Shown piece after piece: positions 3,598 through 38,171 of a stretch of DNA of 64,000 bases. How positions within the stretch are numbered: position 1 is the first letter of the stretch; every line of letters begins with the position of its first letter. The DNA comes from a virus. Its lineage: Duplodnaviria; Caudoviricetes. The position numbers and the translations under genes were made by a program. Under the pieces are notes generated by a model, which saw only the letters and a program-made list of their open reading frames with translations, searched no databases and was not told the DNA's origin. The DNA is taken from positions 1 through 64,000 of the IMG/VR virus record IMGVR_UViG_3300033463_004353. The stretch is one strand, 5' to 3'.

Positions 3598-3966
3598 TCA
3601 GTCACTAATCAATTTGTCTCTTGCTATCTCAATTGCATCATACACAGCAGACAGTTGTGCCGACATCTGCATCCAGTCACCACGACCACCAATGATGCCA
3701 TCACCAACAGCCATGTGGAGCATCCCATAGTAGTCAGGACATGGATCAACTCTCTCTGGAGAATACTCATCATGATAGTCTTGGATGTGTATCTTGATCT
3801 CACCTAAGCCAAGTGTTGCAAATAGTGTGTTCACATAGTCTAGCTCATCTAGCATAGAGCTGATGCCAATCTTTGTGATTTCCTTGCAATGCTCTCTACT
3901 CCCACCCATGCACAATGGTGTTGCAATCTCAGCACACTCATCTATGTTGTCTCTATTTGCTTCCAT
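3598..3966 (-). CDS. Hypothetical protein
   Basis: 122-aa ORF with TTGACTATTTTA motif upstream. Confidence 0.6.
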   Translation of the reverse strand: MEANRDNIDECAEIATPLCMGGSREHCKEITKIGISSMLDELDYVNTLFATLGLGEIKIHIQDYHDEYSPERVDPCPDYYGMLHMAVGDGIIGGRGDWMQMSAQLSAVYDAIEIARDKLISD

Positions 3967-4010
3967 GATATCTGGATTTGCTTGTATGTGTATATTCTAA
4001 AATAGTCAAA

Positions 4011-4988
4011 TCACCAGGCTTTGCATTCTGTCATTATGAATCTCAAGTGTGTTGCCATCAAGCAAGAGTCTGATGCACACAAGATGCTTCTGCAATACAG
4101 CTTGTGGGTGCCATCTGTGATAGTCATCCTTATGAGCTTTGGGTCACTTGCCACATTGCTGCAATGCATCTTCTCAGCATCTATCTCACGATTCTCAAGG
4201 CGCTTAGCTATGCCATGTATCTCAGCATCTATCTTTGAGTTTGTGTCATTGATTGCCTTTGTGACATACTCATCAAGAGTGTAGTTCTTCTTGATTGACT
4301 CAAGCATGACACGGGTCTTTATGATTGAGTCAACTCTCTGCTTTGCCAGGCTTGCGGCCTTTGTATCATTGGATTTCATTGCATTGCTGAACTCTACCCT
4401 AGCTTCATCTTCTTTCACATGTGACTTGGTGATCTTGCTTGGTATGCTCAAGTACAATGCTCTTGACTTCTCACTAGCTTCATCAACACAGCTCTTACGA
4501 TATCCAGATATCTCATCATCTATCTTAGTGAACATCAATCTCTCATTGTCTGCATGGCTTTGGTCTTGCATCTTCTCAACACAAGCAGCAGCTCTCAAGT
4601 ATTGTGACACTAGATATCTGTCAGCCGCACTAGAGTTGTAAGAGTTCATCTTCACCTTGAGCAAGTGCTCAACTTTCCTCTTCTTCACCCTACCTAGCAA
4701 GAAAGAGCAGACAAGCTTTGCAAACTCAACAGGCTCACTCTCAAGAAGCTTGCCAATCTTGCTTGGCTCACTGCCTTGCAACAAGAATAGCCTTATGTCT
4801 TCACTAGAGAACTCAGATCTGCTAGATCTGTCATCATGTGCAGCAGCAAGTATTGCATTGCATATGTCACTTGACTTGCAAGACTGTATTCCATACTTCT
4901 CTGCAATCTTGGCTTTGTCTTTCTTGGTCAAGCACTCACGAACAAGGCTCAAGTCTCTCAACATCTCTTCACTTGTGATGTTTCCCAT
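4011..4988 (-). CDS. Hypothetical phage protein (helical/coiled-coil)
   Basis: 325-aa ORF with promoter motif at 5022-5033. Confidence 0.7.
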   Translation of the reverse strand: MGNITSEEMLRDLSLVRECLTKKDKAKIAEKYGIQSCKSSDICNAILAAAHDDRSSRSEFSSEDIRLFLLQGSEPSKIGKLLESEPVEFAKLVCSFLLGRVKKRKVEHLLKVKMNSYNSSAADRYLVSQYLRAAACVEKMQDQSHADNERLMFTKIDDEISGYRKSCVDEASEKSRALYLSIPSKITKSHVKEDEARVEFSNAMKSNDTKAASLAKQRVDSIIKTRVMLESIKKNYTLDEYVTKAINDTNSKIDAEIHGIAKRLENREIDAEKMHCSNVASDPKLIRMTITDGTHKLYCRSILCASDSCLMATHLRFIMTECKAW

Positions 4989-5051
4989 GTCACTTTGCTT
5001 TAATTAATATCTTGACAATGTGAACATAGAAACATCTATTAGATAGTTCAA

Positions 5052-6431
5052 TCACTTGAAGTCTTTCTCAAGATCTTTCTTCAATGCATCTAAGTCATTG
5101 ATGTACATTTGCTTCTCTGTTGTCTTCTTGATGTATTCAAGCTCTTTCCTTATCTCTTCATTCTGCTTCAGCAGCTCATCTCTCTCTTCAACAGTCATTC
5201 TAGACATTGGTGTTGACAAGAGCTCAATTGGAAGCTTGAATGAGTCCATGTCTGTTTTCACCTCTGCTCTTGTCCTATTCCTAATCTTCAGCTTGCCTTT
5301 GCAGACTAGATCAATGAACTTCACAAGCTCATCATTCTTCTTCAGCTTCTCTTCTAGTATCTTGACTATCCTCTTCTTCCTATCAGTGTACTTGGTGAGC
5401 CTGAACTTCACAAAGTAGTCTATCAGCTCTTTGATGTGAGTGAAGTGGCGTACTTTCTTGTTCTCATCTAGCACCCACAAGCAGTCATCTGGCAACACTT
5501 TCTTGAGCTTCAGCTTAGACTCAATCTTGCTTGATATTGTCTTGCCTTTGAGTGTTGATGCCCACTTGCCTTTCTTGCAGTCTATCCTATAGTCAATCAT
5601 CCCATCTTCAGAGTAGTTTGACCAGTCGCGAATGTCTTCATTCTCAACCATCTTGTTCAATAGCTTCTCAAAAGATGCATACTCAACATCAAATGGCAAG
5701 TCTGTCACATAGATCATCTTCTTCTTCTCATCCCACTTGAACTCACCATAGTTGACCCATTGTCCATCTTCAACCTTCCAACTCTTCTTCTGCACTCCAC
5801 GAACATATGGGTGTATCACCATGTCATCCAATGGCTTCTGCTTCTTTGAGACAAGCATCTCTCGACAAGCATCTATCACTTCAATAGGGTTATATGACAT
5901 AGTTGAGAACCTGAATCCAGGAGACATCCCTTCTTGGCGGTTGACAATCTGCATTGGGATGATTGGCAAGTAGTACTTTGGCTCAATCCACTGGCCCTCA
6001 TCAAATATCTGCTCTGTCAGCTCAATGTCAGTCTTCCACAAGCTAGCATACTTAGACAGCTTCACATACAAGTATCTTGGGCTAGCAGTTGATGAGTCTC
6101 GCAATGTCCCATTTTGAGAGTCAATGTACAGTGGGTTCAAGTTGAACTTGTGCTCTTGTGACAGTGTTATGCAAGTGCTGTTCAAGCTCTGGTCACCATG
6201 TGGATACAATGACAAGTTCATTGTGTCACCAGCTAAGTTAGGTATCTTCTTCTGTGAGCCATCTCTCAGTGATCCATGGAATGCAGCATGCATTATCTTC
6301 CTAGCACCAGTCTTGAGCCCATCAATGCCAGGCAATGCACGATTCTCTGCAACATACTGTGAGAAGTCTTTGTAGTCAGTCTCAAAGAACTCTGATATAG
6401 TCTTAGTCTTGTTTAGCTTGTTCTCCATCAT
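5052..6431 (-). CDS. Type II DNA topoisomerase, GyrA/T4 gp52-like subunit
   Basis: DGLKTGARK, YPHGDQS and ASPRY (catalytic Tyr) motifs. Confidence 0.93.
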   Translation of the reverse strand: MMENKLNKTKTISEFFETDYKDFSQYVAENRALPGIDGLKTGARKIMHAAFHGSLRDGSQKKIPNLAGDTMNLSLYPHGDQSLNSTCITLSQEHKFNLNPLYIDSQNGTLRDSSTASPRYLYVKLSKYASLWKTDIELTEQIFDEGQWIEPKYYLPIIPMQIVNRQEGMSPGFRFSTMSYNPIEVIDACREMLVSKKQKPLDDMVIHPYVRGVQKKSWKVEDGQWVNYGEFKWDEKKKMIYVTDLPFDVEYASFEKLLNKMVENEDIRDWSNYSEDGMIDYRIDCKKGKWASTLKGKTISSKIESKLKLKKVLPDDCLWVLDENKKVRHFTHIKELIDYFVKFRLTKYTDRKKRIVKILEEKLKKNDELVKFIDLVCKGKLKIRNRTRAEVKTDMDSFKLPIELLSTPMSRMTVEERDELLKQNEEIRKELEYIKKTTEKQMYINDLDALKKDLEKDFK

Positions 6432-35986: not shown

Positions 35987-36378
35987 AGCTCTTCAATCTC
36001 TTCTGCTTTTGGGACTTCCATGAACCAACCAACATTGCATGGTGCTACTTCAGCACCAGTCTTGTAGTTAGAGAAGCACTCATTCATCTCTTCCCAAGTG
36101 AATGTGCCATTGTATGCATTGCCACTGGCATCAAACAAGAAGCATTCATCCATGTCATTTGGGAAGAATTCACCAAACTTCTTGAAGATCTTCTTAGACA
36201 CCATCCTCTCTGGTATGTGCTTGTACAAGCAAGATGTGCTCATTATGTCATAAGACACATCATCTGGTTGCTCAAAAGTGCCATATTCATCAACGATGTA
36301 CACTTCTCCTGTTGCCTTGATGCCATCACACTCAAACTTGACTGCATCTCCAACATTGAATCTTGGGTTGCCTTTCAT
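35983..36378 (-). CDS. Hypothetical protein with SH3/KOW-like N-terminus
   Basis: PRFNVGDAVKF...GEVYIVD. Confidence 0.6.
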   Translation of the reverse strand: MKGNPRFNVGDAVKFECDGIKATGEVYIVDEYGTFEQPDDVSYDIMSTSCLYKHIPERMVSKKIFKKFGEFFPNDMDECFLFDASGNAYNGTFTWEEMNECFSNYKTGAEVAPCNVGWFMEVPKAEEIEEL

Positions 36379-36401
36379 ATCATCTCATCCAGTTAGTTTT
36401 C

Positions 36402-36563
36402 TCACTTTCCATAAAGCTTGCGCTTGTAGTGCCTTGCAAGGTCTTTGTACTTGCTGATGCTCTCTGCCATCTTCTCATACTCTGCTTCCTCTAAGACAAC
36501 AAAGTTATAATGCTCTAAGATCTTCTTGCAAGCTTTAGCTATTAAGCCCTTCATCTTTTGCAT
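36402..36563 (-). CDS. Small basic protein (53 aa), not in ORF track
   Basis: MQKMKGLIAKACKKILEHYNFVVLEEAEYEKMAESISKYKDLARHYKRKLYGK. Confidence 0.6.
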   Translation of the reverse strand: MQKMKGLIAKACKKILEHYNFVVLEEAEYEKMAESISKYKDLARHYKRKLYGK

Positions 36564-36580
36564 TCTTTTTTCTGAAAATA

Positions 36581-36939
36581 AAGCTAGCTGTGCTGGCTTG
36601 CACTAACAAGTAGCCTTGTATTAGCCAAAGCCAAAGGCAAAGACCTCAATCTTGCCAAAGCCAAAGACAAAGGCATAGACAATACCGTGGTGAAAGAGGA
36701 TTATCCATGCTTTTCAGTAGTGATTCGCTAATCACCAATGCATGTATCCAAAGTCACCAAGTGCTTGCTATGGAAGTAAGTTGTTGTGTCAAGATTGAGC
36801 CAAACTCTCTGTTGTAGATGCACGATTTCCATCATGCATTGATACTTGGTTTGCTATGTTGGCTATTCTCTAGTGCAACTCAAGAGCTCTCTCAGGTAAT
36901 TTCATGCAAGAGCCCACAACCAGCAACAGTCACTAGCTT
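36581..36939 (-). ncRNA. Candidate large structured non-coding RNA (~360 nt) with paired termini
   Basis: 19-bp bulged terminal stem (36917-36939 with 36581-36600); 10-bp long-range helix; GGAA-capped 9-bp hairpin; twin 21-nt repeats; no credible ORF on the - strand. Confidence 0.65.
36624..36674 (-). repeat. Two 21-nt direct repeats of (CTTTGN)x3 separated by a 9-nt spacer
   Basis: - strand: GCCTTTGTCTTTGGCTTTGGC AAGATTGAG GTCTTTGCCTTTGGCTTTGGC. Confidence 0.9.
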
Positions 36940-36946
36940 GTCATTT

Positions 36947-37831
36947 TCATATGCTGTTTATCAAGTCATAAGTTGGCTTGAGCTTGTCTGGTATGATGAT
37001 CCTCAAAGCAATAGCATCTGACTTCTTCTTGCTGAGCTCAGCAAGATACTCATCATACATCTTCTTGTTGTTCATATGGTAGTCATTGACAGCTTTCAAG
37101 TACTTCTCATTGATTTCATTAGTCCTCTTGCTGATTTCTGACTTTATCTCAAACTTCATCTTGTTGAGCTCACTCTCATACTCACGATGCTTGTTGTGCA
37201 GCTTGAAGAAGATTTCATCAAGCTCTTCAATGCGAATAGATGGTGTCATGTCATAGACAACTATTGTGTCATTCATCGTCTCAACACGAGATGGGTAGTA
37301 TTGTGAGTCAATTATCTCTTTCCTTGCTTCTGACAATGGGCTGTTCTGGTGGATAACTTTCCCAATCACTGAGCACTTTGTCTCAAGTGAGTAGTACTTC
37401 AGTCGCTTGTCAGCATCCCACTCTCTTACGATATCTTCTTCAGTTGGTGATTGATCAGCATTTGGATATCCATTGTCTTCATATCCATGCTCTTTCAAGA
37501 ACTTCTCATAAGTGTAGTTCTCTTCAATCTTAGAGTACATCATCTCTTTGGCTTTGATAGCTTCTCTTAGCCAAGCAATCAGAGTCTTCACTTCATAGAT
37601 TGTCTTGATGTGCTTCTCATGTATCTCATGCAAAGAAGCCAAGCTTGAGCCATTCTTCACTTTCTTCTTAGTGCCATTGATTTCAACTGTCTCATCTATG
37701 AAGCTCAGCTTTGAGATCTTCAGCTCAATGTTCGATATGTATTCTTTAGCCTTTGATGCAACAGAGTCAGCACTTGTAGAAGTGAGGCCTTCTTTGCCAA
37801 AGAAAACTAAGTCATTGTAGAAATTTTTCAT
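36947..37831 (-). CDS. Uncharacterised coiled-coil protein directly upstream of the candidate ncRNA
   Basis: 294 aa; motifs FFG.EGLTSTSA and LIAWLREAIKAKE; own promoter motif at 37863-37874. Confidence 0.85.
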   Translation of the reverse strand: MKNFYNDLVFFGKEGLTSTSADSVASKAKEYISNIELKISKLSFIDETVEINGTKKKVKNGSSLASLHEIHEKHIKTIYEVKTLIAWLREAIKAKEMMYSKIEENYTYEKFLKEHGYEDNGYPNADQSPTEEDIVREWDADKRLKYYSLETKCSVIGKVIHQNSPLSEARKEIIDSQYYPSRVETMNDTIVVYDMTPSIRIEELDEIFFKLHNKHREYESELNKMKFEIKSEISKRTNEINEKYLKAVNDYHMNNKKMYDEYLAELSKKKSDAIALRIIIPDKLKPTYDLINSI

Positions 37832-37862
37832 GTTATGTGCAATTCATTCTTTTTTCACTAAT

Positions 37863-37874
37863 TAAAATAGAAAC
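37863..37874 (-). promoter_or_regulatory. Putative early/middle promoter (GTTT|TTGA)CTAT(T/A/G)TT (representative site)
   Basis: Also at 1312, 3998, 5022, 8429, 10461, 11778, 18080, 24703, 33511, 35236, 40048, 41675, 46162, 54491 and 55578 (all - strand). Confidence 0.7.
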
Positions 37875-37919
37875 TGCCATTTATCTGATTCAACATCATG
37901 CCAAGCAGTGTGTGTATGT

Positions 37920-38171
37920 CTAGTCTCTGGAGGATTGGCAACCATATTCATCATTCTCTCTATAGAACTCACAACTTTGGTCTGCAAATTCCTTCATTGC
38001 ACCAACCACTACCCTCTCATTGTATCCTATAGTGACAAGCAACCCAACTATGGCATTGAGTATCTCATCAAGTGAAAAGTCACTATGTGGGATCTCCCAA
38101 GATGACTTCATGTCATAGTTCTCAATGGTTATCTTTGTTATGCTCTTCTCATCATTCTTAAAGTATGCCAT
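37920..38171 (-). CDS. Hypothetical protein
   Basis: 83-aa ORF. Confidence 0.6.
   Translation of the reverse strand: MAYFKNDEKSITKITIENYDMKSSWEIPHSDFSLDEILNAIVGLLVTIGYNERVVVGAMKEFADQSCEFYRENDEYGCQSSRD

What the first reader, a model, noticed from the sequence alone, without database searches (positions are those of the whole stretch)
36581..37874. Candidate protein + large structured ncRNA system: 294-aa coiled-coil gene followed by a ~360-nt RNA with paired ends and twin hexamer-repeat arms
Seen in the sequence: this is the only long intergenic stretch in a gene-dense window, and it starts 7 nt after the stop of the 294-aa gene, which has its own promoter motif (37863-37874). On the - strand its 5' end (AAGCUAG uga CUGU u GCUGG UUG, 36917-36939) pairs with its 3' end (36581-36600) in 19 Watson-Crick pairs, followed by a U-rich run. 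Internal helices are: GGGCUCU/AGAGCUC (36909-36915 with 36884-36890); a 9-bp hairpin capped by a GGAA GNRA loop (36818-36839); ACCAAGU/ACUUGGU (36844-36850 with 36756-36762); a GUGAUU/AAUCAC hairpin (36720-36735); and a perfect 10-bp long-range helix CUCAAUCUUG/CAAGAUUGAG (36790-36799 with 36645-36654). That last helix holds the 9-nt spacer between two 21-nt (CUUUGN)x3 repeats, which would leave the U-rich repeats single-stranded. Inference: this is a co-transcribed RNP in which the helical protein, possibly as an oligomer, binds the repeated CUUUG units of a scaffold or decoy RNA. I recall similar GLTSTSA / LIAWLREAIKAK proteins in other Bacteroidota phages, but I have not verified that. I cannot name a characterised system that matches.
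Basis: partly seen in the sequence, partly recalled or inferred. Interest (0 to 1): 0.88.

Follow-up and report, generated by a model that had tools for sequence, protein, structure and literature searches.

The report
New phage RNA with UUG-hexamer arms
Right after a conserved phage gene of unknown function lies a real, expressed, folded RNA of about 355 bases that belongs to a widespread, uncatalogued RNA family. The family displays two single-stranded rows of six-base repeats and probably forms an undescribed RNA-protein particle.

Summary
In detail: every helix and both repeat arms sit at the stated coordinates, and the region folds better than shuffles (z -3.6).

Conservation: 74 of 82 loci encoding a relative of the 294-aa protein (25-47% identity, phage contigs of 95-350 kb) carry one significant covariance-model hit, always on the gene's strand and just downstream.

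Shared architecture:
- a closing stem, in many members followed by a U-run;
- a 5' hairpin and a long helix;
- helix P4, which pairs an upstream strand with the 12-15-nt spacer between two single-stranded arms of N-U-Y-U-U-G hexamers.

Covariation is strong: 27 of 35 pairs change on both sides, and P4 is 94% paired across 34 loci. G-U pairs favour the sense strand, and no ORF is conserved.

Expression: contigs from four small-RNA libraries of one bovine-gut study cover only 36549-36937 and neither flanking gene.

No Rfam family matches. The protein matches no Pfam, PHROG, NCBIfam or PDB family.

I read it as a new ncRNA family and a likely protein-binding scaffold. Binding to the neighbouring protein is inferred, not shown.

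Earlier unchecked AI notes of this scan describe the same kind of gene-plus-RNA module on other phage DNA.

The parts
36947..37831 (-). 294-aa helical protein of unknown family (GLTSTSA and LIAWLREAIKAK motifs); the gene the RNA always follows
   Evidence: ORF. 579 homologs at E <= 0.001; the 120 listed are 251-314 aa. Invariant motifs. No Pfam, PHROG, NCBIfam, PADLOC or PDB family. AF2 model pLDDT 86.9, with long helices and two beta hairpins.
36581..36939 (-). body of the ncRNA, from the 5' strand to the 3' strand of the closing stem P1 (about 359 nt)
   Evidence: Fold z -3.61. RNA-library contigs cover 36549-36937 only. Best R2 covariance-model hit of the whole window lies inside it.
36575..36580 (-). 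U-rich tail (UAUUUU) after the closing stem
   Evidence: Sequence. Many relatives have a U-run at the same place.
36917..36939 (-). P1, 5' strand of the closing stem
   Evidence: Sequence and MFE. Equivalent to family helix 1, which covaries.
36581..36600 (-). P1, 3' strand of the closing stem
   Evidence: Sequence and MFE.
36884..36915 (-). 5' hairpin GGGCUCU...AGAGCUC, in the position of family hairpin P2; its loop holds UGCAUGAAA and CUGAG
   Evidence: Sequence and MFE. The family's ACUGA...GAAA order is not kept here.
36870..36876 (-). candidate 5' strand of P3 (GCACUAG), pairing with 36600-36606 just after arm 2; can alternatively pair with CUAGUG in P1
   Evidence: MFE. Position matches family helix 3. 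Inferred only, because no close relatives exist to test it.
36790..36799 (-). P4, 5' strand (CUCAAUCUUG)
   Evidence: Duplex -15 kcal/mol. Aligned as P4 by model R2.
36656..36673 (-). arm 1: three hexamers CCUUUG UCUUUG GCUUUG, single-stranded
   Evidence: The strain variant at 36667 falls on the variable first base of a hexamer.
36645..36654 (-). P4, 3' strand (CAAGAUUGAG), inside the 12-nt spacer between the arms
36626..36643 (-). arm 2: three hexamers UCUUUG CCUUUG GCUUUG, preceded by GG as in the family
36720..36850 (-). lineage-specific helices: ACCAAGU/ACUUGGU (36844-36850 with 36756-36762), the GGAA-capped hairpin 36818-36839 and the hairpin 36720-36735. Of these, only 36720-36735 lies in the 109-nt stretch between P4 5' and arm 1 that replaces the family's compact P5 element.
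   Evidence: Sequence. The R2 alignment shows a 109-nt insert in place of 25 consensus positions.

Best explanation
The 36575-36939 stretch (- strand) encodes a stable, highly structured phage non-coding RNA of about 355 nt. It is a divergent member of a large, uncatalogued RNA family that always sits just 3' of the gene for a roughly 295-aa helical protein.

Shown:
- The RNA is conserved.
- It folds on the sense strand.
- It is not coding.
- It accumulates as a discrete species.

Inferred mechanism:
- The helices P1, P3 and P4 form a scaffold.
- The scaffold holds two unpaired, G-punctuated pyrimidine tracks, one at each end of helix P4. Each track is 2-5 units of N-U-Y-U-U-G.
- Each six-base unit is one binding register for a protein that reads single-stranded RNA. 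The RNA would therefore load several protomers, or one elongated protein, side by side.
- The most likely partner is the protein encoded immediately upstream, giving a phage ribonucleoprotein. What that particle does is unknown.
For: Fold: z -3.61.

Conserved gap: an ORF-free gap of about 350-460 nt follows the homolog's stop codon in most of 82 loci.

Covariation in 10 loci:
- 35 pairs in 4 helices, 87% paired against 37-47% with slid partners.
- 27 pairs change on both sides; 0 of 500 shuffles reach this.

Helix P4:
- The spacer-to-upstream duplex was found in 32 of 33 lineages, each with a different sequence, the window included. In L040 the top-scoring duplex lay elsewhere and P4 was placed by eye.
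- Across 34 loci P4 is 94% paired and all 9 pairs covary (on a model-fitted alignment).

Strand: 304 of 349 cells pair on the sense strand against 262 on the antisense strand, with 51 G-U cells. All model hits are on the gene's strand.

Association: model R2 hits 74 of 82 loci at E <= 0.01, once each, 100-700 nt after the stop codon. In the window the top hit of both strands is 36612-36801(-), with P4 and both arms aligned.

Repeats:
- Hexamer logo from 223 units: U or C at positions 2-3, U-U-G at 4-6, G at 10% or less elsewhere.
- The arms are the best conserved unpaired segments among 27 close relatives.

Not coding: spacer lengths of 12-15 nt, no frame open in 23 of 36 loci, and TTG is never replaced by another Leu codon.

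Expression: contigs from four small-RNA libraries cover 36549-36937 only and neither flanking gene.

Strain variants: six variant positions all lie outside the listed helices, and one is the variable first base of a hexamer.
Against: - No experiment or computation here shows that any protein binds the arms.
- The neighbouring protein has no recognisable RNA-binding fold or family.
- Gene adjacency alone is weak evidence for binding.
- The window's RNA scores only 14.6 bits (E 0.39 for the whole window) against the family's 3' domain model. It lacks the family's P5 element and the ACUGA...GAAA form of P2.
- The expression data come from one study, are assembled contigs, and give no strand or exact ends.
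- No close relative of the window's own RNA was found, so its lineage-specific helices are untested.
Confidence: 0.5

Rival explanations
1. Decoy or sponge for a host single-stranded-RNA-binding protein. The arms would titrate an abundant host protein, such as a cold-shock-domain, S1 or RRM protein. The neighbouring gene would be linked only by shared transcription.
For: - The window's unit G-N-CUUUG matches the preferred site reported for B. subtilis CspB, 5'-GTCTTTG/T-3' (PMC1904285, found).
- The arms are G-poor pyrimidine tracks kept unpaired.
- CSD and RRM_1 genes exist in Bacteroides thetaiotaomicron, one of the tool's control genomes, but not in the held phage fragment.
- The RNA is abundant enough to be assembled when its flanking mRNAs are not.
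Against: - It does not explain the strict adjacency to one phage gene across phages whose copies of the protein share only 25-47% identity with the window's.
- The host is unknown.
- The CspB preference was measured for a Gram-positive protein on DNA.
- Most family members carry UUCUUG or AUAUUG units and not GUCUUUG.
Confidence: 0.2
2. A cis-acting or processing element of the transcript. It could be a structured 3' UTR that stabilises or autoregulates the upstream mRNA. Alternatively it could be a leader or processing platform for the tRNA genes that often follow. In either case the stable RNA would be a by-product.
For: - The RNA starts within 30 nt of the stop codon in most loci inspected; in L038 and L065 an ORF intervenes.
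- tRNA genes follow directly in several lineages. In L005-type loci a tRNA-like gene (ARAGORN: unassigned tRNA, two-base anticodon) is called at 2292-2361, right after the RNA's 3' domain (model hit ends at 2265), where a U-run would otherwise be.
- In L080 a tRNA-Gln lies between the 5' and 3' domains.
Against: - The downstream genes differ between lineages, and many loci have no tRNA.
- An element of four covarying long-range helices plus two conserved repeat arms is far more elaborate than known mRNA stabilisers.
- The accumulating species is the element alone.
Confidence: 0.12
3. Replication origin or primer RNA. The hexamers would be iterons for an origin-binding protein (the 294-aa protein), or the transcript would prime DNA synthesis, since the locus lies among replication genes.
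For: - Neighbours are a DNA helicase (phrog_2488, 1e-94), a RuvC-like resolvase and a topoisomerase II subunit.
- Repeats beside a conserved unknown protein are typical of origins (my knowledge).
Against: - Helices covary with many G-U pairs that would be A-C mismatches on the other strand.
- A 6-bp repeat period does not put sites on one face of duplex DNA (my knowledge).
- rU:dA-rich hybrids are weak primers (my knowledge).
- A discrete RNA with paired ends accumulates.
- In other lineages the locus is not next to a helicase.
Confidence: 0.06
4. A small hydrophobic peptide gene: the hexamers read as X-Leu or Phe-Leu dipeptide repeats.
For: - Two of the three frames through the arms are often open. 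In the window a 32-aa ORF (36584..36682) runs through the arms.
- GenBank annotates a 58-aa CDS over the element in PQ006092.
Against: - Spacer lengths of 12, 13, 14 and 15 nt shift the frame between arms.
- 23 of 36 loci have no open frame across the 3' domain.
- The conserved part is always the triplet UUG and never a synonymous Leu codon, while the variable part would be a whole codon.
- Base-paired covariation explains the variation.
Confidence: 0.02

Closest known systems
VIPR systems: Vipr RAMP protein plus vrRNA (bioRxiv 10.64898/2026.04.26.720920; read)
   Same: - Phage-borne.
- A small RNA encoded in the intergenic DNA beside one protein gene.
- The RNA combines a conserved folded part with a single-stranded run of short tandem units, in which a constant triplet alternates with variable bases.
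- It is detected by small-RNA sequencing.
   Different: - vrRNAs are about 100 nt with 9-16 YNNGG units (5-nt period) and hypervariable NN. Here the RNA is about 355 nt with two arms of 2-5 hexamers.
- The constant part here is UUG, and the variable bases are pyrimidine-biased.
- In the window only one base per unit varies, so the arms carry too little information to be a guide.
- The protein model is mostly long helices, not an RRM-core RAMP.
- No vap gene was recognised.
TRAP with the trp leader, and HutP with the hut leader (Bacillus); my knowledge, not tested here
   Same: Evenly spaced triplets on unpaired RNA are read by the subunits of an oligomeric protein. HutP reads two sets of three triplets separated by a spacer, which resembles the two arms here.
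   Different: - Those triplets are GAG/UAG with 2-4-nt spacers in an mRNA leader that controls termination.
- Here the triplet is UUG (rarely UAG or UCG) at an exact 6-nt period, inside a large free-standing RNA.
- No TRAP or HutP family was found in the neighbouring protein.
Cold-shock-domain binding sites (CspB consensus 5'-GTCTTTG/T-3', PMC1904285)
   Same: The window's unit G-N-CUUUG is nearly that heptamer. The site size of 6-7 nt matches the period. The tracks are pyrimidine-rich and unpaired.
   Different: - No CSD protein is encoded in the held fragment.
- Most family members use UUCUUG or AUAUUG units.
- No natural RNA with tandem CSD sites on a folded scaffold is known to me.
Large phage-associated structured ncRNAs of unknown function (ROOL, GOLLD; Rfam)
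   Same: A large, multi-helix RNA with strong covariation, phage-borne and often near tRNA genes.
   Different: - No match to any of the 4227 Rfam models, in the window or in 20 relatives.
- It is smaller.
- It is defined by hexamer arms and by strict linkage to one protein gene.

Membership tests
Any Rfam 15 family | Score at or above the family's gathering threshold | tested here: not met
   0 hits in the whole window. Only noise at E >= 0.12 in 36300-37100. In 20 related loci only tRNA and one tmRNA were found, none on the element.
The uncatalogued two-arm UUG-hexamer RNA family found here (models R1, R2) | Position: directly 3' of a homolog of the GLTSTSA/LIAWLREAIKAK protein, on the same strand | tested here: met
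   The window RNA starts 7 nt after the stop codon. The same arrangement is seen in 74 of 82 loci by model hit.
The uncatalogued two-arm UUG-hexamer RNA family found here (models R1, R2) | Two single-stranded arms of hexamers ending in U-U-G, separated by a 12-15-nt spacer that pairs with an upstream strand (P4); GG before arm 2 | tested here: met
   Window: arms of 3 + 3 units, a 12-nt spacer, a 10-bp P4 and GAGG before arm 2.
The uncatalogued two-arm UUG-hexamer RNA family found here (models R1, R2) | Closing stem between the 5' and 3' ends, followed by a U-run | tested here: met
   19-bp P1 plus UAUUUU. The family helix covaries.
The uncatalogued two-arm UUG-hexamer RNA family found here (models R1, R2) | P2 hairpin with the ACUGA...GAAA internal loop, and the compact P5 element (YUGA...GGAGG) before arm 1 | tested here: not met
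   The window has a hairpin at the P2 position, but CUGAG and GAAA are in the reverse order. P5 is replaced by a 109-nt insert. The closest protein relatives (L001, L003, L004) also have 79-84 nt there.
The uncatalogued two-arm UUG-hexamer RNA family found here (models R1, R2) | Significant covariance-model score for the 3' domain | tested here: inconclusive
   14.6 bits, E 0.39 over 128 kb searched. It is the best hit of the window and lies at the syntenic place. The window was not in the seed.
VIPR (Vipr + vrRNA) | vrRNA of 9-16 tandem YNNGG units with hypervariable NN | tested here: not met
   The units are hexamers N-U-Y-U-U-G in two arms of 2-5 units. No GGY periodicity.
VIPR (Vipr + vrRNA) | Vipr protein with RAMP features (RRM core, G-loop, thumb) | tested here: inconclusive
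   The AF2 model is long helices plus two beta hairpins. No RAMP or Cas7 chain appears among the Foldseek or VIA-align matches, which does not exclude a missed fold.
DUF6847 / DIP1984 (PF20935) and DUF7873 partner proteins named in earlier scan notes | HMM match of the neighbouring protein | tested here: not met
   PF20935 has no match in the whole held record at E <= 10. hmmscan of five family members at E <= 10 lists neither family. 3kdq appears only at Foldseek rank 16, E 0.6.
TRAP / HutP type regulators | Protein of that family and (G/U)AG triplet sites | tested here: not met
   No such Pfam hit. The triplet is UUG in 71% of units, and UAG in only 14%.

The most novel reading that the evidence does not exclude
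The RNA and the 294-aa protein form a new class of phage ribonucleoprotein. In it, protomers of an all-helical protein bind RNA with a six-base register marked by UUG. The two loaded arms, held by the P1-P4 scaffold, act on a nucleic acid or a host machine. This would be a third solution, beside Cas7/RAMP backbones and VIPR, to building a periodic protein-RNA filament, and it would be widespread in large gut and rumen phages.
Probability: 0.3. Interest if true: 0.9.

Novelty: categorically new. Interest (0 to 1): 0.8.

Why it matters
Large, strongly covarying bacterial and phage RNAs with no assigned function are rare, and past examples have led to new biochemistry. This one has features that make it testable:
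- It occurs in phage contigs of 95-350 kb from human, bovine and rodent gut samples.
- It is already visible in small-RNA libraries.
- It is linked to a single orphan protein.
- It carries a very simple feature, UUG every six bases on two unpaired arms, that can be mutated.

A gene-plus-RNA cassette of about 1.3 kb should be enough to test for a particle, and one GenBank phage genome (PQ006092) carries such a cassette. The finding also corrects annotation, because short ORFs called over the element are probably spurious. Together with similar modules noted elsewhere in this scan, it points to a broader and so far unpublished group of phage RNAs with periodic UUG marks.

Tried and rejected
- DNA similarity of 36400-38000 to GenBank phages: no match. 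tblastn of the protein found only 2 records.
- Single-protein scans of viral and metagenome contigs found no close relative. The alignment-based scan was what worked.
- Pattern scans of IMG/VR returned almost only coding repeats. GGTTCTTG(N3TTG)3 recovered four known family members, and the window-type arm pattern recovered none. I therefore could not test whether the RNA ever occurs without the protein, nor find relatives of the window's own subtype.
MAFFT did not align the P4 5' strand across lineages. I built a 6-sequence seed and iterated from it.
- Protein fold searches (Foldseek PDB, VIA-align wide and second look, BFVD, ESM Atlas) gave only generic coiled-coil matches. The best was Z 8.7 to LipC, below what is meaningful for helical proteins. 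One uncharacterised phage protein also matched.
- The homodimer prediction for the 294-aa protein gave no verdict: score 0.05 against a mark of 0.42.
- NCBIfam and PADLOC: nothing significant.
- The generic promoter and terminator scan was uninformative.
- Literature searches for a crAss-like or phage ncRNA with hexamer repeats found no description. Fremin and Bhatt 2021 name no such motif in the main text; their supplementary tables were not checked.
- I first took the phage for crAss-like. The baseplate wedge, Ig-domain tail protein and topoisomerase II argue otherwise.
- A hammerhead-like reading of CUGA...GAAA in P2 was rejected: the core does not fit and no Rfam model hits.
Full report
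**What is at the locus.** On the - strand a 294-aa ORF (36947..37831) is followed by 383 nt without a credible ORF, down to a 53-aa ORF at 36402..36563.
- the terminal stem (19 Watson-Crick pairs with small bulges), followed by UAUUUU;
- the 7-bp hairpin;
- the 9-bp GGAA-capped hairpin;
- ACCAAGU/ACUUGGU;
- the 6-bp hairpin;
- the perfect 10-bp helix whose 3' strand lies in the 12-nt spacer between two (N-CUUUG)x3 arms.

The segment folds at -116.8 kcal/mol against -98.5 +/- 5.1 for shuffles (z -3.61). No tRNA and no Rfam family is found in the window. A permissive Rfam search of the region gives only noise.

**The genome.**
- The held record is a 74-kb virus fragment that CheckV rates 26% complete, from a bovine gut metagenome.
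- It encodes a baseplate wedge protein, an Ig-domain tail protein, the topoisomerase II large subunit, a DNA helicase just upstream of the locus and a RuvC-like resolvase downstream.
- It is therefore a large tailed phage and not a crAss-like one.

**The protein.**
- It has 579 homologs at E <= 0.001; the 120 listed are 251-314 aa.
- GLTSTSA and LIAWLREAIKAK are invariant in 29 diverse members.
- Pfam, PHROGs, NCBIfam, PADLOC and PDB sequence searches give nothing significant.
- The AlphaFold model (pLDDT 86.9) is two long helices (64-105 and 201-275), shorter helices and two beta hairpins.
- Structure searches return only generic coiled-coil arrangements, best Z 8.7. One uncharacterised phage protein in BFVD also matches. 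Its function cannot be read from sequence or fold.

**The element is a conserved family.** I fetched 82 loci encoding relatives of the protein: 80 from IMG/VR plus 2 from Logan assemblies. The relatives share 25-47% identity, and the longer contigs run from 95 to 350 kb. Most loci have an ORF-free gap of about 350-460 nt right after the stop codon, whatever gene follows. The downstream sequences fall into many clusters that BLAST cannot align, yet they share one architecture:
- P1, a stem between the two ends, in many members followed by a U-run;
- P2, a hairpin with an ACUGA...GAAA internal loop, followed by UGAAUG;
- P3, a long helix between the segment after P2 and the segment after arm 2;
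- a variable region;
- P4, which pairs an upstream strand with the 12-15-nt spacer between the two arms;
- a compact P5 element ending in GGAGG before arm 1;
- arm 1 (2-3 units) and arm 2 (3-5 units) of hexamers.

The hexamer logo from 223 units is N, U/C, U/C/A, U, U(A/C), G, with G at 10% or less at the first five positions. Positions 4 and 6 are partly fixed by how I collected the units.

**Evidence that it folds as a single strand, on the sense strand.**
- In a MAFFT alignment of 10 loci, RNAalifold finds the four helices, and 27 of 36 pairs show compensatory change.
- Counted on 35 pairs, 87.1% of cells pair against 37-47% when partners are slid by 1-3 columns. In addition, 27 pairs change on both sides against 6-13 in the slid controls. 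No shuffle out of 500 reaches any of the five measures.
- The same pairs give 304 of 349 standard pairs on the sense strand and 262 on the antisense strand, with 51 G-U cells.
- RNAduplex finds P4 (9-13 bp, -10 to -23 kcal/mol) in 32 of 33 lineages tested, each with a different sequence, the window included. In L040 the top-scoring duplex lay elsewhere and P4 was placed by eye.

**Covariance models.**
- A model of the 3' domain (P4, P5 and the arms) was seeded with 6 sequences and rebuilt once (R1 and R2).
- At E <= 0.01 it hits 74 of 82 loci. Each locus has one hit, always on the gene's strand, 100-700 nt after the stop codon.
- On the model-fitted alignment of 34 loci, P4 is 94% paired and all nine pairs covary, with up to six pair types at one position. 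Fitted alignments lean towards the structure, but the slid controls give 33-47%.
- Of the eight loci below threshold, seven show weak hits or the architecture by eye: L001-L004, L047, L052 and L082.
- L034 keeps only the 5' motif.
- In L038 and L065 an ORF lies between the gene and the RNA's 3' domain.

**The window's copy.**
- With filters off, the best R2 hit on both strands of the 64-kb window is 36612-36801(-), at 14.6 bits and E 0.39. P4 and both arms align, and a 109-nt insert stands in place of P5. That score is not significant alone, but it is the top hit and lies at the syntenic place.
- The closest protein relatives (L001, L003, L004) likewise have 79-84 nt between P4 and arm 1.
- The order P1, hairpin, UUGAGUU linker, candidate P3, P4, arm 1, P4', arm 2, P3', P1', U-tail is the family order.
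- The window differs in three ways. Its hexamers are N-CUUUG, its 5' hairpin does not have the family's internal loop, and P5 is absent.
- I found no close relative of this subtype. Its lineage-specific helices therefore rest on the single-sequence fold only.

**Not coding.**
- Spacers of 12, 13, 14 and 15 nt change the frame between arms.
- No frame is open across the 3' domain in 23 of 36 loci.
- The invariant part of each unit is the triplet UUG itself and never a synonymous codon.

**Expression.**
- Four size-fractionated RNA-seq runs of bovine gut samples, all from one study and held as Logan contigs, contain five contigs of 162-259 nt at 98-99.6% identity.
- These contigs lie wholly within 36549-36937. 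Nothing covers the 294-aa gene or the genes downstream of 36549.
- Two contigs end at 36935 and 36937, which is 2-4 nt inside the predicted 5' end (36939). One ends at 36584, 3 nt inside the predicted 3' end (36581). One runs on to 36549.
- DNA carry-over would cover the flanks as well, so a discrete, abundant RNA is the simplest reading.
- Contigs give no strand and no exact ends, and this is one study.
- Six strain differences (36667, 36686, 36691, 36773, 36856, 36901) all fall outside the listed helices. 36667, the first base of a hexamer, has three alleles.

**How it probably works.**
- Shown: a conserved, folded, expressed RNA that keeps two G-punctuated pyrimidine tracks unpaired at the two ends of helix P4. 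Among 27 close relatives the arms are the best conserved unpaired segments.
- Inferred: each hexamer is a binding register for a protein that reads single-stranded RNA.
- The strict linkage to one orphan gene, across phages whose copies of the protein share only 25-47% identity with the window's, makes that protein the first candidate. Nothing here shows binding, and the dimer prediction gave no verdict.
- A host-protein sponge is the main rival. The window's unit is close to the CspB preference GTCTTTG/T (PMC1904285).
- A guide-like, VIPR-style role is unlikely for the window, where only one base per unit varies, but it is not excluded for other members.
- Origin, cis-element and peptide readings are weaker, for the reasons given under the rivals.

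**Comparison with what is known.**
- The nearest published concept is VIPR, a phage RAMP protein with vrRNAs of 9-16 YNNGG units and a folded tail (bioRxiv 10.64898/2026.04.26.720920). Period, motif, RNA size and protein fold all differ.
- TRAP and HutP read spaced triplets in leaders (my knowledge).
- No paper found in the library describes this RNA.
- Earlier AI notes of this scan, which are unchecked, report the same kind of module on other phage DNA. e1-5644392 describes UUG triplets on two single strands after a coiled-coil gene. Others describe UUG-heptad RNAs with small helical proteins, and hexamer-bearing RNAs with DUF7873. Those notes gave me the VIPR paper and the DUF6847 and DUF7873 leads.
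- I tested those leads and found no sequence relation to either family.

**Verdict.** This is a new, widespread phage ncRNA family with a defined architecture and expression evidence. Its partner and function remain to be shown.

Noticed in passing
L005:347-730 (IMGVR_UViG_3300045988_003954): A full-length tmRNA gene (Rfam 72 bits; ARAGORN tag peptide GNTSYRVAA) lies about 0.4 kb upstream of the homolog's gene (match 1145-2026) in a 97-kb human-gut phage contig, so the homolog's gene sits between the tmRNA and the hexamer RNA. A tRNA-like gene (unassigned, two-base anticodon, 2292-2361) is called just after the hexamer RNA's 3' domain (model hit ends at 2265).
   Followed up: partly
L080:3799-3890: A tRNA-Gln gene lies between the RNA's 5' domain and its 3' domain (model hit 3941-4052). 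tRNA processing would then split the RNA into two pieces that could still pair through P1 and P3. The L075, L076 and L079 relatives also have about 300 extra nt there.
   Followed up: partly
L083:4939-5115 and 5024-5134 (GenBank PQ006092.1, Bajarodcaudo virus 1): A complete 98.6-kb GenBank phage genome carries the RNA (R2 85.8 bits). The record annotates a 58-aa hypothetical CDS (XHH63432.1) over it, which is probably spurious. This record is a publicly deposited complete genome that carries the module.
   Followed up: partly
L038:3469-3804 and 4033-4129; the same in L065: In two very large contigs (349 and 225 kb) the gene ends in an ordinary terminator hairpin. A 111-aa ORF is inserted before the RNA's 3' domain, so adjacency can be broken by an insertion.
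   Followed up: no
L034:3392-3960: This locus keeps the 5' hairpin motif but has no detectable 3' domain within 2.5 kb. The RNA may be interrupted or decayed here.
   Followed up: no
window, whole: The held record is only about a quarter of the phage genome by CheckV. TTGN3TTGN3TTG occurs 16 times against 1.8 expected, mostly inside genes, which shows a codon-linked periodicity unrelated to the RNA.
   Followed up: no
P0103: One homolog is deposited as a protein of a 'Clostridia bacterium' MAG on a 380-kb contig. This may be a huge phage binned as a bacterium, or a sign that the module is not limited to phages of Bacteroidota.
   Followed up: no
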